A stretch of DNA of 64,000 nucleotides from Chrysomallon squamiferum (taxonomy: Eukaryota; Animalia; Mollusca): the NCBI GenBank assembly GCA_012295275.1, contig CM022672.1, forward strand, positions 20,708,001 through 20,772,000, in the 5' to 3' direction. The notes below the pieces were generated by a model, which did no database searches, was not told the DNA's origin, and saw only the letters and a list, made by a program, of their open reading frames with translations. The translations under genes and the position numbers were made by a program. Below, one piece after another: positions 314 to 32,620 of this stretch (within the stretch, counting starts at the first letter, position 1; every line of letters begins with the position of its first letter).

Positions 314-3306
314 ATCCATCACATCTATCTCCATCTCTGCCAGCAGGACAGCGACAGTGATTTGGTCTATCACAGGTACCTCCATTTCTACAGTCAGGAA
401 GACAGACAGCTGAAAAAAAGAGAAAACAAAGAGATCCCTGTAAACTAAAAATTAAATTATTTGAATGTTTAACAAATAAAGTATCCCAGCAATTTATGAG
501 GCAAGCTTGGGACCAGAGGTGGGTTGGATTTCTGGATTAAATCATTACTGATAAAATGTTGAGTAAAATATAAAATAAACAAGGAAATGAATAAAAAAGA
601 GTAAACTGAAACATAACTTATTGTCAGAGGATCATCTATATATACTGTCACCTGAACTGGCGTCATGGAAGTTAAAATGCTCCTAATTCAAATGTAGCCA
701 ATTTCAAATAAAGGTGCTTTTTTATGTTTAATTTCTGTCCAGTTACATGATTAAGAAATAACGAACGAAGATAGCACTGTAAACACATATTGAGATTCTT
801 GTTGTTGCTATATTTTCATGTATGCTTTCGTAAAATTTACGAATAAAATTTCTTATATGATATAATTTCGTTTATTTCTTTTAATTTGAACAGAAATACT
901 AACTAATCAGAAGTTCCTATTCAGCTGTGCTTGTTAACGTCAGATTATGTCAGTAAGAAACAAACTTACGAACGGTGCAGCTAGTTGAATCCCACCTCGT
1001 TCTCTTCCAGCCCATGCAACAGTAAGGTTCATATCTGTACCGTATCGTCCAGGCATATGTAGAGGAACAGCAGCTGAAACAAAACATATAATTTAGCTAA
1101 CATAGGTAATGTCTAACAAATCGAAAAATTAGTCTTAAGCATATAATAAAAAAAAATAAATAAAAAAAAAATAATTGTAATTTAGGAATATAATCTTCAG
1201 ATTATAGCTAGTTTATAGATTTTATTTGCTCTCTCTCTCTCTCTCTCTCTCTCTCTCTCTCTCTCTCTCTCTCTCTCTCTCTCTCTCTCTCTCTCTCTCT
1301 TTATCTCTTTATTTTTTTAAATTATTATATTTTCAGTAAAACTCTCATCCTTAAGAAACAAATTTAATTGCGAATTTACATTTAAAGTTTTTAGAAACTC
1401 TAAAAATAAATAAAAAAAGAAAAGAAAAGTACTTACATAAACCAGAAGCTGAAAGTACATACGCGTACTCGTTCATAATAACGCACTCTTCGATGACACA
1501 CATGTCTATAAATAAATAAATACATCAGTGTAATTTTGTGTGTGTAAAAAGGGGCGATCGTACAAAATGCTATAAAACATGTACGTAAATACGTTAGTGA
1601 ACGCATAAAGCAAAAACAAATACTACATCACAATTACATATAAATATTTATAATCAAAATCTTAAATAAAGGACACCAAACAGTCTGTTGCTATGGGCTG
1701 CGAAACGAGCAGCAATGTGAAAAATCGTAAAAAAAAATAGTTTATAAAAGCTGGTTATTATCCAGGTATTTTTTTTATTGATGACTAACTTAAACTTTAA
1801 TGTTCAGGTAAACTGTAATAGGACAATAGAGGGTGTGTTGCATCATGAACTTTATTTCAGTTTATGTTTTACGAATTGACAAACCAGTCTGCAAATAAAT
1901 CTTGTTAAACTGAAAAACTATATACATATATAATAAACTGTCATATCGAGTAAAACGATGTTTTTGCCAAAGCCATAATAAAAATTGGGACACTATCACA
2001 ATGGCTAAAAGCATTAAAGTTTAGACAGCTGTTGGAAAAAAAAAAAAAAAAAAAGAAATGAAATAAATTAAAAAAAAAATAATATATCAAAATATTTCTT
2101 TTGAATAAATTATTTTCGATAAAAAGAGTTTTCAAGTATATGTCTGTACGTACGACAACTAATTTTATACGTGGTTTATGTAACACGGTCATATTATACA
2201 CACGCCAGGTCTTATTAAACGTACAATAGTTAATTGAAACGTCATTTGCTGTTTCCCAAAACGAAAAACAATAATAATAATAATAATAATAATAATAATA
2301 ATAATAATAATAATAAAAAAAAAAAAAAAAATAAAAAGTAAAAATTGCTATAATCAGATATCTTCTATAATTATCAGATTTAAACGTGTGGTTATTGCTG
2401 CTGTCATTTGCAGACTACGAACAGTCGCATTTATAGAACGAAAATACCGTATGACGCTTTGTAATATAATGCGAATTGATGGACACGTGACTTTATCTCC
2501 CAATCAAATGCTCGCAGCTAAAAGTTTTTGTTGGTTAAGTAGTAAGTAGTCCAAGGAATAAAATATCCATTTCAATAGTAAAATATTTGTTTTCTCAGCG
2601 AGCTTTCCAGACTACTGGTTTACAAATTAGCGAGCTGTGTAGCCAATATGAGATGTAGAGGTAGTTTAAATCATTGCGAAAAATTATAAAAAATAATATA
2701 ATTTTGTTTGTTTGTTTATCAATTCTATTCTATTTCGACTTGTCACAAGAAAATAGCCCTGTGTGACAGAACTGTCTAAATACCAGATAATTCAAAAGAT
2801 TTTGAAACATAAACAGCTGACATGCTTTTGACTTGCCGCTCGCCAAATCATATCTCTATAATTATTTTTTGAAGTCAACGTACTTATTTGTAAACTATTT
2901 ATTTTTAAATACCTGTTGCTTTGAAACTTTTTAAGCCTTATAACATACACAATTTAATAAAATAATTCTCCTTAGAAAGTTATTTATTCTTCATTATTGT
3001 TAATATGATAATTTTTTGGTGTATATATTTTTAAAAACTTACATGAAACATCAATTTTAATTACATGACAAATAAAAAGATTAGTTCATGACAATATGTC
3101 TGTTATAAATTCTGTAGCCCCATTATAACATAACTTACGTTATAGGCGCCGAACTAGCTTGATTCGTCCTATTGTATAAAATTCAATTGTTTTGCTGTCT
3201 GTCACAATAAATAAATAAATAAATAAATAACAGCTTACCCCGACCACCCATGAGCTAAAGCTAGAAAGGAGATCAAACACAGAACTGAAAAGATTTTCAC
3301 GTCCAT
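314..3306 (-). CDS. Tandem paralog of the receptor pseudokinase, 5' four exons (signal peptide, EMI-like, EGF); continues off the left edge
   Basis: Exons 3239-3306, 1437-1505, 970-1073 and 314-409 have the same lengths (68/69/104/96) and phases as the gene at 29397-32620. The frame is open: [112 protein letters not shown]. Confidence 0.85.
1230..1300. repeat. (TC)n microsatellite
   Basis: Perfect dinucleotide run. Confidence 0.95.
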
Positions 3307-30300: not shown

Positions 30301-32620
30301 TACTCATCTTCCGTTTATTTCTTTTGATTTGAACAGAAATATTAACTAATCAGAATTCCTTATTCAGAGGTGCTTGTTAACGTCAAACTATGTCAGTAAG
30401 AAAACAAACTTACGAACGGTGCAGCTAGTTGAATACCACAACCTTCCCTTCCAGCCCATACAACAGTAAGGTTCATATCTGTATCGTTCCCTCCAGACAT
30501 ATTTATAGGAACAGCAGCTGAAACAAAACATATAATTTAGCTGACATAGGTAATGTCTAACAAGTCGAAAAGTTTGTCTTAAGCCTTTTTTGAAGAAAAA
30601 AAATGAACAAAAAAATAATAATTTGTAATTTAGGAATATAATCTTTAGATTATAGCTGGTTTATAATTTTTACTGTCTCTCTCTGTTAAATATTTATCGT
30701 TTTATTTCTTTAAGTTATAATATATTCTTGATTATATATTTTCAGTAAAACACTCTTCGTTAAAAAGAAATTTAAAGTTTTTTAAAAGTCTATAAATAAA
30801 TAAAGAAAGAAAAGAAAACAACTTACATAAACCAGAAGCTGAAAGTACATATGCGTTTTCGTTCATAATAACACACTCTTCGGTGACACACGTGTCTGTA
30901 AATAAGCAAGTACATCAATATAATTGTGTTTGTATAAAAAATATGTCCATAAAAATTCCAGGTGTAACAATCCTTGCTATCTTTTAATTTCACGGAATGA
31001 CTAGCCTTCTATATCCCCAAGTTTTTAAAAAAATGAATACAAATTTCATCAGATAAAATTTAGTTATATTTAGAAATATATTTCTGGCTTAACTATTATG
31101 GTGCATCAGCTTAACACATGTATAAACAAAACCAGCTTTTATTTTGAAAGCAGTTTCCATAATTTGTTACCAGAGGATTTTAAACTTTAAAAAAAAAAAA
31201 AAAAAATTAAAAAAAAAAAAAAAAAAAAGATTATCTGTGATTTATTGTCTTTTATTTTTCAATATTATTATAAAATTATTTATTTTAATTATAAATGATT
31301 ATTTATTCAACCTATTATAATTCCCCCCCCCCCACCATTTATTATTATAAATATCACGTATGACAAATCGTGAAATATTTGATATCTCTATGATGATGTC
31401 TGTAGGATTCATTTTCAAATTCGTAAATGCAAACATAATCACATATGATATATGTATTTTATAAAAAAAGAGGGAATTCAGGTTTACTTTGTTATAGAAT
31501 AGACAGTCACTTATAAATGAGCGGGGCCGTGACGGGAAAATACCTAACGAGTCCATCAAAAAGGGTCGACCTTTCTTGATCCTAAATAAATTACTGAATG
31601 CTTCGAATAGAACATTTCTTTTTTTTTTTCTTTTTTTTTCTTCCTCTATTTTCTTTTTTTTTTTTAAATGGAGAAAAAAACGAAGAAGAAGAAGAAAAAA
31701 GAAACAATTAGACAAAAATTAAATCTGGGTTAATATAAACATTTATAATCAAGATCTTAAGTAAAGTGGTATCAAACGGTCTGTAGCTAGGGCTACAAAA
31801 CGGGAAGCGGTACCAGAGATGTGACATTACATGGTAGTTTCCAAAGCTGGTTATTAGAGAAAGCTATTTTCTAGCATCTGTTCATTTAAGCTGTAAAAGG
31901 ACAATAGAGTGGAGTTGTATCTTGCAGTTTATTTGATGGACGTGAATTGATGGACACGTGACTTTATCTCCCATTCAAATGCTCTTAGCGAACAAGTTTT
32001 GTACGTTGCCAACAAACAGTTCAAATAGCGGGCTTTCCAGACAACTGCTTTATGAATTAGCAAGGTGCGTTGCCACTATGAGGTATAGAGGAAGTTAAAA
32101 TCATTGCAGTAAATTATAGAAAAATAATATAATTTTGTTTGTTTGCTTGTTTATCAGTTCTATTCTATTTCGACTTGTCACAAGGAAATAGCCCTGTGTG
32201 ACAGAACTGCCTAAATACTAGATAATTTTGAATGTCTTCCGCACAAAATAACCGGGCAACTCTCGGTGGCTTCCGTTAAAAAACTGAAACAAACAAACAA
32301 CAACAACAAAAAAGCAAAAATAAAAAAAGGCGAAGACAACAACGATCAATTTAATTACATGACAAACAAACAAATTAGTTTACGCCAATATGTCTTTTTA
32401 AGATTTTAGAGGCCCACTATAACCTAACTTACGTTACATGCCCGCTCTAGGTTAATCCAACATATTCGAATACATTTCATCTCTAATGCTGTGTGCCACA
32501 ACAAACACACAAACAAATAAATAAATAAATAAATAAATAAATAACAGCTTACCCTGACCACCCATGAGCTAAAGCTAGAAAGGAGATAAAACACAGAAGT
32601 GAAAAGATTTTTACGTCCAT
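17781..32620 (-). CDS. Receptor tyrosine pseudokinase (signal peptide, EMI-like, 2x EGF, Ig/FN3-like stalk, FN3, TM, kinase-dead PTK domain), ~1245 aa, 22 exons
   Basis: Exons (minus): 32553-32620, 30827-30895, 30414-30517, 29397-29492, 28922-29035, 27987-28277, 27364-27517, 26730-26949, 25564-26390, 25116-25233, 24478-24678, 24034-24070, 23209-23475, 22549-22605, 21927-22105, 21143-21341, 20793-20912, 19903-20057, 19272-19388, 18776-18890, 18218-18311, 17781-17916. All introns are GT-AG and the exons total 3738 nt in frame. It starts [23 protein letters not shown] and has [31 protein letters not shown] motifs include [42 protein letters not shown] and [12 protein letters not shown]. It ends DEFYYYQK*. 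Confidence 0.9.
20095..20610. repeat. Intronic minisatellite, ~29-bp unit
   Basis: Tandem copies of TATGTAATGTGTTACTGTATGTATTTAGC-like unit. Confidence 0.85.
23209..23475 (-). CDS. Fibronectin type III exon of the receptor pseudokinase
   Basis: ITWDH...[14 protein letters not shown] is the FN3 signature. The exon is phase 1-1. Confidence 0.88.
25564..26390 (-). CDS. Largest ectodomain exon of the receptor pseudokinase (beta-sandwich Ig/FN3-like modules)
   Basis: Matches the 272-aa ORF 25560-26378. It contains [14 protein letters not shown] and VHFDDSPP motifs and is bounded by AG and GT. Confidence 0.85.
27788..27960. repeat. (ATT)n(AGT)n compound microsatellite
   Basis: Direct reading. 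Confidence 0.9.

What the first reader, a model, noticed from the sequence alone, without database searches (positions are those of the whole stretch)
314..32620. Tandem birth-and-death array of EMI-EGF receptor tyrosine pseudokinases
Seen in sequence: one complete gene (17781-32620), a recent intact-looking paralog (314-3306), an older decayed paralog (11325-13277) and two inverted exon-1 relics, all within 37 kb. The architecture is signal peptide, EMI-like, 2 EGF, long beta-sandwich stalk, FN3, TM and a dead PTK. Established knowledge: N-terminal EMI plus EGF typifies Nimrod/Draper/MEGF10 phagocytic receptors, which have no kinase domain, and Tie-type RTKs have EGF plus FN3 but no EMI. Inference: this combination matches no named RTK class I know. 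A fast-turnover cluster of such receptors is what a lineage-specific immune or self/non-self recognition family would look like.
Basis: partly seen in the sequence, partly recalled or inferred. Interest (0 to 1): 0.85.

Follow-up and report, generated by a model that had tools for sequence, protein, structure and literature searches.

The report
Unnamed dead-kinase EMI receptor family
This snail locus holds one intact, spliced cell-surface receptor gene plus a partial and a broken copy, from an apparently unnamed family in molluscs and annelids whose kinase has lost its catalytic residues and which likely recognises targets with a fast-changing tip and would signal through partner kinases.

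Summary
Gene A (minus strand, 32620-17781) has 22 GT-AG exons and encodes 1245 aa. Two RNA contigs tile exons 6-13 and 9-22 at the predicted lengths. Copy B shows only exons 1-4 before the window edge and is too diverged for a haplotype. Copy C is a deleted pseudogene. There are three inverted exon-1 relics, not two.

The family is not lineage-specific. It has 121 relatives from 33 named mollusc species, often several per genome, plus an annelid orthologue and hemichordate look-alikes. In all 113 kinase rows the alphaC Glu is Lys and the catalytic Asp is absent; the DFG Asp is Gly in 112. Juxtamembrane and C-terminal tyrosines are kept in about 95%. The N-terminal module is a shortened EMI: a cationic, aromatic hairpin and usually the part that differs most between paralogues. 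The annelid has a VWA domain there instead.

Best reading: a Draper-like recognition receptor with a scaffold pseudokinase, phosphorylated in trans. The immune role is untested. Ten literature searches found no description. Verdict: new variant of a known kind.

The parts
17781..32620 (-). Gene A, intact 22-exon receptor pseudokinase gene, 1245 aa
   Evidence: model; RNA contigs tile exons 6-13 and 9-22
32553..32620 (-). A exon 1, signal peptide
   Evidence: hydropathy
30414..30895 (-). A exons 2-3 (30827-30895, 30414-30517): shortened EMI-derived module, predicted long beta-hairpin, net charge +8, 28% aromatic, 8 Cys
29397..29492 (-). A exon 4, NIM/WIF1-type EGF
   Evidence: Pfam EGF E=2e-5
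28922..29035 (-). A exon 5, second EGF-like module
   Evidence: EGF E=0.022
24034..28277 (-). A exons 6-12: about 615-aa all-beta stalk of tandem FN3/Ig-like sandwiches, no Pfam name
   Evidence: model of the homologue P0005
23209..23475 (-). A exon 13, membrane-proximal FN3
   Evidence: E=2.9e-5; Z 15.2, rmsd 2.0, 94 aligned
21927..22605 (-). A exons 14-15, transmembrane helix and juxtamembrane segment
17781..21341 (-). A exons 16-22: conserved juxtamembrane Tyr pair (945, 947), tyrosine pseudokinase domain, C-terminal Tyr cluster
314..3306 (-). Copy B, exons 1-4 only (3239-3306, 1437-1505, 970-1073, 314-409); runs off the window
   Evidence: 93 of 112 aa identical to A, dS 0.14, dN 0.09
3050..7488 (.). 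Upstream region of B, direct duplicate of the upstream region of A (32345-35471), 70-80% identical
11474..13277 (-). Copy C, pseudogene: truncated exon 13 (stop at 13129-13131), exon 17 (12860-12979, GC donor), exon 20 (11958-12072), exon 21 (11474-11566, 1-nt deletion)
3809..3936 (+). Inverted relic of exon 1 upstream of B
33113..33221 (+). Matching, more decayed inverted exon-1 relic upstream of A
   Evidence: weakest of the three
35888..35974 (+). Second inverted exon-1 relic upstream of A, inside a longer inverted copy (35616-36115)

Best explanation
Gene A encodes a spliced 1245-aa single-pass receptor whose tyrosine-kinase domain lacks its three catalytic acidic residues, and it likely works as a Draper-like recognition receptor that signals through tyrosines predicted to be phosphorylated by a partner kinase. 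Proposed steps: (1) a stalk of beta-sandwiches holds a cationic, aromatic EMI-derived hairpin away from the cell (fold predicted); (2) the hairpin binds an anionic surface such as dying-cell lipid, microbial wall or a bridging protein (inferred); (3) clustering lets a Src-type kinase or an active RTK phosphorylate the acidic juxtamembrane Tyr pair and the C-terminal Tyr cluster (inferred); (4) SH2 proteins dock, plausibly PI3K p85 on the YxxM motif (inferred from a recalled consensus); (5) the dead kinase acts as scaffold or conformational switch (loss of residues shown, inactivity inferred). Tandem duplication and decay keep supplying copies with new tips (turnover shown, its cause inferred).
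For: Kinase: of 113 rows (gene A plus 112 of 121 relatives with at least 200 aa of kinase), alphaC Glu is Lys in 113; the catalytic Asp position holds Arg 77, Lys 29, His 7, Asp 0; the DFG Asp is Gly in 112 (1 gap); the beta3 Lys is kept in 111. In a search made with a stalk query, 31 of the 150 listed rows have the catalytic-loop motif and 0 of 31 have Asp. Activation segment without Tyr in 100 of 105. Docking sites: Tyr945 in 110, Tyr947 in 107, juxtamembrane YxxM in 88, Tyr1241 in 107 of 113. Tip: pLDDT above 90 two-strand hairpin; net charge positive in 37 of 42, median +6; cysteines align with the Pfam-EMI-scoring segment of crinoid P0270 (EMI E=1.4e-4); Atlas top hit is an EMI+PEAR1-like EGF cluster (0.87). 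The hairpin is the least similar ectodomain part in 39 of 53 paralogue pairs. The annelid orthologue has VWA in its place. Species-level clades of copies; five copies on one contig length in Gigantopelta. Draper and Megf10 are phosphorylated by Src-family kinases (PMC8092387, passages).
Against: No expression by tissue, challenge, binding or phosphorylation data. Draper's NPxY and ITAM are mostly absent (NPxY 10 of 113, ITAM 0 of 113). Pfam EMI scores on 0 of 8 family proteins and is not among the 25 most frequent of 66 families over 38 members; the Atlas hit is under 0.9 with 152 shared features; the TGFBIp structural match is weak (Z 3.2, rmsd 3.2, 43 aligned). dN/dS of exons 2-3 between A and B is about 0.9 on 15 vs 4 changes, which fits relaxed constraint as well. 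The 53 pairs are not independent, and among five close abalone copies the tip (0.77) is no more variable than the lower stalk (0.74). EMI can serve adhesion rather than engulfment (NimA, PMC13076899, passages).
Confidence: 0.5

Rival explanations
1. A developmental or adhesion co-receptor in the manner of PTK7/ROR/RYK or fly NimA: the tip binds a host protein or matrix, and copy turnover is mostly neutral drift in a repeat-rich region.
For: Pseudokinase signature and tyrosines are fixed from chiton to annelid, as expected of a conserved pathway. NimA needs its EMI for cell adhesion (passages). Tip dN/dS is not above 1.
Against: PTK7/ROR/RYK are mostly single-copy (recalled), whereas this family re-expands separately in abalone, Mya, Sinanodonta, oyster and Gigantopelta. 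The tip diverges most in 39 of 53 pairs and is swapped for VWA in an annelid.
Confidence: 0.3
2. A HER3-like obligate partner or a decoy of an active RTK (Ret/FGFR/Tie-like): the signal depends on a kinase-domain heterodimer, not on a cytoplasmic Src-type writer.
For: The closest solved kinases are FGFR1-3 and KIT; the best non-family profile hit is a fly Ret. The kinase surface is well conserved (mean identity 0.49 over 38 members). Several relatives are annotated without the kinase.
Against: No partner identified. The kinase-less entries may be truncated gene models.
Confidence: 0.12
3. The pocket is rewired rather than dead: the fixed Lys/Arg residues replace Mg2+ and bind ATP or another phosphorylated ligand, giving a nucleotide-sensing switch or slow metal-free transfer.
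For: Three acidic positions changed to Lys, Arg/Lys/His and Gly in nearly every member while the beta3 Lys stays. An invariant Lys at alphaC suggests a new job, not mere decay.
Against: The kinase domain was not modelled. No catalytic base remains. The first and third Gly of the G-loop are lost (Gly in 2 and 0 of 113).
Confidence: 0.08
4. The array is an assembly artefact: B is an uncollapsed haplotype of A.
For: RNA contigs differ from the window by up to 29 of 675 nt in exon 9, so alleles or close copies are diverse.
Against: B and A differ by 20-30% over several kb of non-coding DNA; C is a third, far older copy; relatives carry several copies too.
Confidence: 0.02

Closest known systems
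Draper / MEGF10 / PEAR1 / CED-1 / NimA (EMI-bearing Nimrod-type receptors)
   Same: N-terminal EMI-derived module, CCxG[W/Y/F] followed by a NIM-type EGF (31 of 39), single TM, signalling proposed through tyrosines written by another kinase
   Different: Only 2 EGFs, a 615-aa beta-sandwich stalk plus FN3, a whole kinase domain, EMI shortened by about 22 residues against the crinoid relative, no ITAM and rarely NPxY
Receptor tyrosine pseudokinases HER3, PTK7/CCK4, ROR, RYK, EphA10/EphB6 (properties recalled)
   Same: Single-pass receptor with a TK fold lacking catalytic residues; scaffold role expected
   Different: Different ectodomain; a triple change (alphaC Glu to Lys, HRD to HR[RK], DFG to GFG) that I do not recall from any of them; multi-copy with birth and death
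FGFR / Ret / Tie / KIT-type kinases
   Same: Nearest solved kinase sequences; automatic names of members include FGFR, Tie-1, angiopoietin-1 receptor, ephrin receptor and FER
   Different: No Ig-I set, cadherin or RET Cys-rich domain; catalytic residues missing; separate clade 100/99 against six outgroups
Drosophila Wsck (WSC + FN3 + kinase, architecture recalled) and amphioxus expanded TK families EXTK/NOK/MARTK (recalled)
   Same: Invertebrate orphan RTKs, some expanded or predicted inactive
   Different: No WSC or MAM domain here; none came back in the searches, so kinase orthology was not tested

Membership tests
Receptor tyrosine pseudokinase (functional kind) | Signal peptide, single TM helix, cytoplasmic TK-fold domain | tested here: met
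Receptor tyrosine pseudokinase (functional kind) | Loss of one or more of beta3 Lys, HRD Asp, DFG Asp | tested here: met
   HRD Asp absent in 113 of 113, DFG Asp absent in 112 of 112 aligned
Receptor tyrosine pseudokinase (functional kind) | No measurable phosphotransfer | not testable with these tools
   needs a kinase assay
Draper/MEGF10/Nimrod receptors | N-terminal EMI scored by Pfam PF07546 | tested here: not met
   0 of 8 full-length members at E<=0.5; no family on exons 2 or 3 alone
Draper/MEGF10/Nimrod receptors | N-terminal module homologous to EMI | tested here: met
   cysteines align with the EMI segment of stalk-sharing P0270; Atlas lead; weak match to TGFBIp 44-102
Draper/MEGF10/Nimrod receptors | CCxG[Y/W] motif before a NIM-type EGF (definition recalled) | tested here: met
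   31 of 39 for each pattern
Draper/MEGF10/Nimrod receptors | Cytoplasmic NPxY and ITAM, no kinase domain | tested here: not met
   NPxY 10 of 113, ITAM 0 of 113, kinase domain present
FGFR | Ig-like I-set ectodomain and active kinase (recalled) | tested here: not met
   no such Ig family among the 25 listed for 38 members; catalytic residues absent; separate clade
Tie | Ig-Ig-EGFx3-Ig-FN3x3 and active kinase (recalled) | tested here: not met
   2 EGFs, EMI-derived tip, catalytic residues absent
Tie / Cad96Ca / STYK1 / Wsck / amphioxus EXTK-NOK | Kinase-domain orthology | not tested
   none of these was among the six outgroups (Ret, FGFR, ALK, Fer, two unnamed); the amphioxus and sea-urchin papers were not held
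Birth-and-death multigene family | Tandem copies of different age with pseudogenes | tested here: met
   A, B, C and relics
Birth-and-death multigene family | Copies group by species or genus rather than as orthologue sets | tested here: met
   quick tree of 119 rows
Immune or self/non-self receptor family | Positive selection on the binding tip | tested here: inconclusive
   dN/dS about 0.9 on 19 changes; tip least similar in 39 of 53 dependent pairs
Immune or self/non-self receptor family | Haemocyte or challenge-linked expression; ligand binding | not testable with these tools
   runs laid are contigs without tissue or level

The most novel reading that the evidence does not exclude
An unrecognised receptor class as old as Bilateria: an EMI-tipped, unnamed beta-sandwich ectodomain joined to a kinase that died once, before protostomes and deuterostomes split. 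It survives in molluscs, annelids and hemichordates, was not seen in vertebrates or insects, and serves as a variable innate recognition system. The same ectodomain is plugged into adhesion GPCRs and 3000-aa secreted proteins, and its charge-reversed pocket binds nucleotide without metal.
Probability: 0.25. Interest if true: 0.85.

Novelty: new variant of a known kind. Interest (0 to 1): 0.66.

Why it matters
The classic receptor pseudokinases come from vertebrates and flies. This is an apparently unnamed, multi-copy family in farmed oysters, scallops, clams, mussels and abalone. Its members are filed as uncharacterised or as FGFR, Tie, Eph or FER, which misleads transcriptome studies. It joins the recognition end of Draper-type receptors to a dead kinase with a family-wide charge reversal, a clean test case for metal-free pseudokinase function. 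If the immune reading holds, it is a new diversified recognition family for molluscan immunity and symbiosis, testable with existing RNA-seq.

Tried and rejected
No whole genome was held, so copy number beyond the window and the rest of B are unknown. A two-copy complex prediction of the N-terminal 132 residues of P0003 gave no answer (score 0.00, alignment not used); it says nothing either way. No PEAR1, MEGF10 or Draper structure appeared in the fold searches of the tip; absence there excludes nothing. Homology of the juxtamembrane Tyr pair to the FLT3/KIT segment was only a chance-level hit (E 0.8) and is not claimed. The 40 of 201 read differences that the tool listed gave 12 non-synonymous to 4 synonymous in the ectodomain and 9 to 6 in kinase and tail: too few and pre-selected. 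C as an alternative 3' cassette of A was rejected (stop, frameshift, missing exons). Wsck orthology: the paper search (listing; passages) gave no sequence motif and no Wsck protein came back. The oyster kinome table (PMC4883820, S1 part 4) has two rows named FGFR2 but filed under Fer and Syk at 33-36% identity and marked mostly up under stressors. Family member K1RP20 bears that name, but I could not tie it to a row and the column heads were not readable, so this is a lead only. No cephalopod, arthropod, nematode or vertebrate member was seen among named hits, but the word-index searches are insensitive and only 20 of the 132 new representatives were named. Rfam: 0 matches. NCBIfam: only generic kinase hits. 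Earlier scan findings: none. Four papers asked for by recalled id were not held.
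Full report
Observation. The window is AT-rich animal DNA (GC 24-36%); no genome was held. Exons defined by coordinates give gene A on the minus strand, 32620-17781: 22 exons, every intron GT-AG, 3738 nt, 1245 aa. Per-exon Pfam scans find EGF (exons 4, 5), FN3 (exon 13) and PK_Tyr pieces (exons 16, 18-22). Two RNA contigs from two samples of one study tile the model: X5 record 18 over exons 6-13, with 1 of 828, 0 of 220 and 0 of 201 differences in exons 9, 8 and 11, and X9 record 20 over exons 9-22, with gaps equal to the unlisted exons. 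X9's contig differs by 29 of 675 nt in exon 9 and 12 of 178 in exon 15, so it is a diverged allele or a close copy.

The array. B has exons 1-4 before the window edge, open, 93 of 112 aa identical to A, dS 0.14 and dN 0.09. Its upstream 4.4 kb matches A's at 70-80%, too far apart for alleles. C keeps significant remains of exons 13, 17, 20 and 21 only, with a stop and a frameshift, at 60-69% aa identity to A. Three inverted exon-1 relics pass shuffle controls; one lies upstream of both A and B, so it predates their duplication.

The family. Exon 9 found 34 longer proteins among 6387 candidates, all molluscan, best Gigantopelta aegis at 72-77% with five entries on one contig length; the window is thus from a related gastropod. 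A kinase-region search gave 110 hits at E<=1e-40, of which 107 are family and 3 other kinases; a profile search added three. In all, 121 family rows came from 33 named species of chiton, gastropods and bivalves. A quick tree of 119 kinase rows makes the 113 family rows one clade (SH-aLRT 100) with separate expansions in Gigantopelta, abalone, oysters, scallops, Mya and Sinanodonta. Oyster members carry consecutive RefSeq accessions XP_034323631-39 for six loci, which suggests a cluster (inference).

The kinase. Nine of 121 rows were dropped for lack of 200 aligned kinase residues. In the remaining 112 plus gene A: alphaC Glu is Lys in 113; the catalytic Asp position is Arg 77, Lys 29, His 7; the DFG Asp is Gly in 112; the beta3 Lys stays in 111. 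All six outgroups keep Glu, Asp and Asp. A phmmer search with the stalk-only protein P0027 (452 hits at E<=0.001, best 150 listed) is independent of the kinase: 31 rows carry the catalytic-loop motif, none with Asp. The activation segment lacks Tyr in 100 of 105. In contrast an acidic juxtamembrane Tyr pair (110 and 107 of 113), YxxM (88) and a C-terminal Tyr (107) are kept; NPxY (10) and ITAM (0) are not. Nearest solved kinases are FGFR1-3 and KIT.

The ectodomain. A model of homologue P0005 (74-row alignment, mean pLDDT 85) is all-beta from about 155 to 860. Residues 346-860 align with four tandem FN3 domains (3t1w, Z 14.9, rmsd 19.1, 345 aligned) and the last is a canonical FN3 (Z 15.2, rmsd 2.0, 94 aligned); residues 155-345 were barely tested. 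The N-terminal module of homologue P0003 folds as a hairpin of two 18-residue strands at pLDDT above 90. It is cationic in 37 of 42 members and aromatic-rich. Pfam EMI does not score on the family (0 of 8; not in the 25 listed of 66 families for 38 members). But crinoid P0270, which shares the stalk, has EMI at 28-96 (E=1.4e-4, 23 bits against a cut-off of 25), and hhalign places the family's cysteines on it with two deletions. The Atlas top hit is an EMI plus PEAR1-like EGF cluster (0.87, a lead). The best structural row covering only the tip is TGFBIp 44-102 (Z 3.2, rmsd 3.2, 43 aligned), which I recall as its EMI/CROPT domain. I take the module as a shortened EMI. It is the least similar ectodomain part in 39 of 53 paralogue pairs (pairs not independent, and not so among five close abalone copies).

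Beyond molluscs. Of the 132 new representatives, 20 were named. Owenia fusiformis P0241 has VWA, stalk, FN3, TM and the same kinase signature and tyrosines (28.5% to gene A over 121-1241). Ptychodera and Glandiceps (three proteins) have the stalk, TM and a dead kinase with HRK but a kept alphaC Glu and no G-loop. In 30-row trees Owenia joins the molluscs (100/99), and the hemichordates lie on the same side of a branch against six outgroups (98/96 and, with a mixture model, 97/94). The outgroup set is small and lacks Tie, Cad96Ca, STYK1 and Wsck, so a single origin is possible, not shown. The same stalk also occurs in starfish adhesion GPCRs, in 2000-3400-aa FN3 proteins of limpet, abalone, amphioxus and crinoid, and in a Lingula protein.

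Mechanism. Shown: anatomy, splicing, loss of catalytic residues, conserved tyrosines, turnover of copies. Predicted: folds. Inferred: ligand binding by the tip, phosphorylation in trans, SH2 docking, immune role. [quoted passage not shown] The main rival follows NimA, whose EMI mediates adhesion (PMC13076899, passages). I put scaffold signalling at about 0.75 and the recognition role at about 0.5.

Literature. Ten searches (listings with abstract starts) showed no paper on this family; six member LOC ids occur in 0 papers. I read passages of PMC4883820 (plus S1 table part 4), PMC8662651 ('mollus' 0 occurrences), PMC5620054 (notes a rise of kinase receptors in lophotrochozoans), PMC11908783 and PMC10552548. 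The library lacks most subscription papers, including any behind the Haliotis diversicolor 'FGFR' entry and the amphioxus, sea-urchin and pseudokinase surveys, whose text or supplements could already list this family.

Verdict. A real, transcribed member of an old, apparently unnamed, multi-copy receptor pseudokinase family. It is not a Draper, Tie or FGFR by membership, but it likely works like Draper with a pseudokinase scaffold. New variant of a known kind; interest 0.66.

Noticed in passing
window about 45000-63900, minus strand: Exons of a large VWDE-like gene: VWD, VWDE-type Ig, laminin G-like and EGF domains, with a Thr/Ser-rich repeat at 52520-53233.
   Followed up: partly
window 47993-48307, plus strand: Open frame ending in a PHD finger (E=1e-4), opposite to and apparently inside an intron of the VWDE-like gene; possibly a transposon remnant.
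   Followed up: no
P0244, P0272 (Patiria miniata): Adhesion GPCRs (GPS + 7tm_2) that carry the same unnamed stalk as gene A.
   Followed up: partly
P0223, P0255, P0291, P0219: 2000-3400-aa FN3-rich proteins of limpet, amphioxus, abalone and crinoid begin with the same EGF + stalk module; the module has no Pfam name.
   Followed up: partly
P0281, P0301, P0270: Single-pass proteins with the stalk and no kinase in abalone, clam and crinoid.
   Followed up: no
P0009 (AUY55153.1) and P0320 (K1RP20): Deposited as abalone FGFR and oyster FGFR2, but both are members of this pseudokinase family.
   Followed up: yes
window 29397-29492 (exon 4): Both RNA contigs differ from A at the same four listed sites of exon 4, two of them non-synonymous, while X5's later exons are nearly identical to A: a mosaic allele or gene conversion is possible.
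   Followed up: partly
window 17489-17801: A direct repeat of about 165 nt (74%) just 3' of gene A's stop codon.
   Followed up: no
window 20093-20768 and 38516-39395: Minisatellite arrays, the first inside intron 17 of gene A.
   Followed up: no
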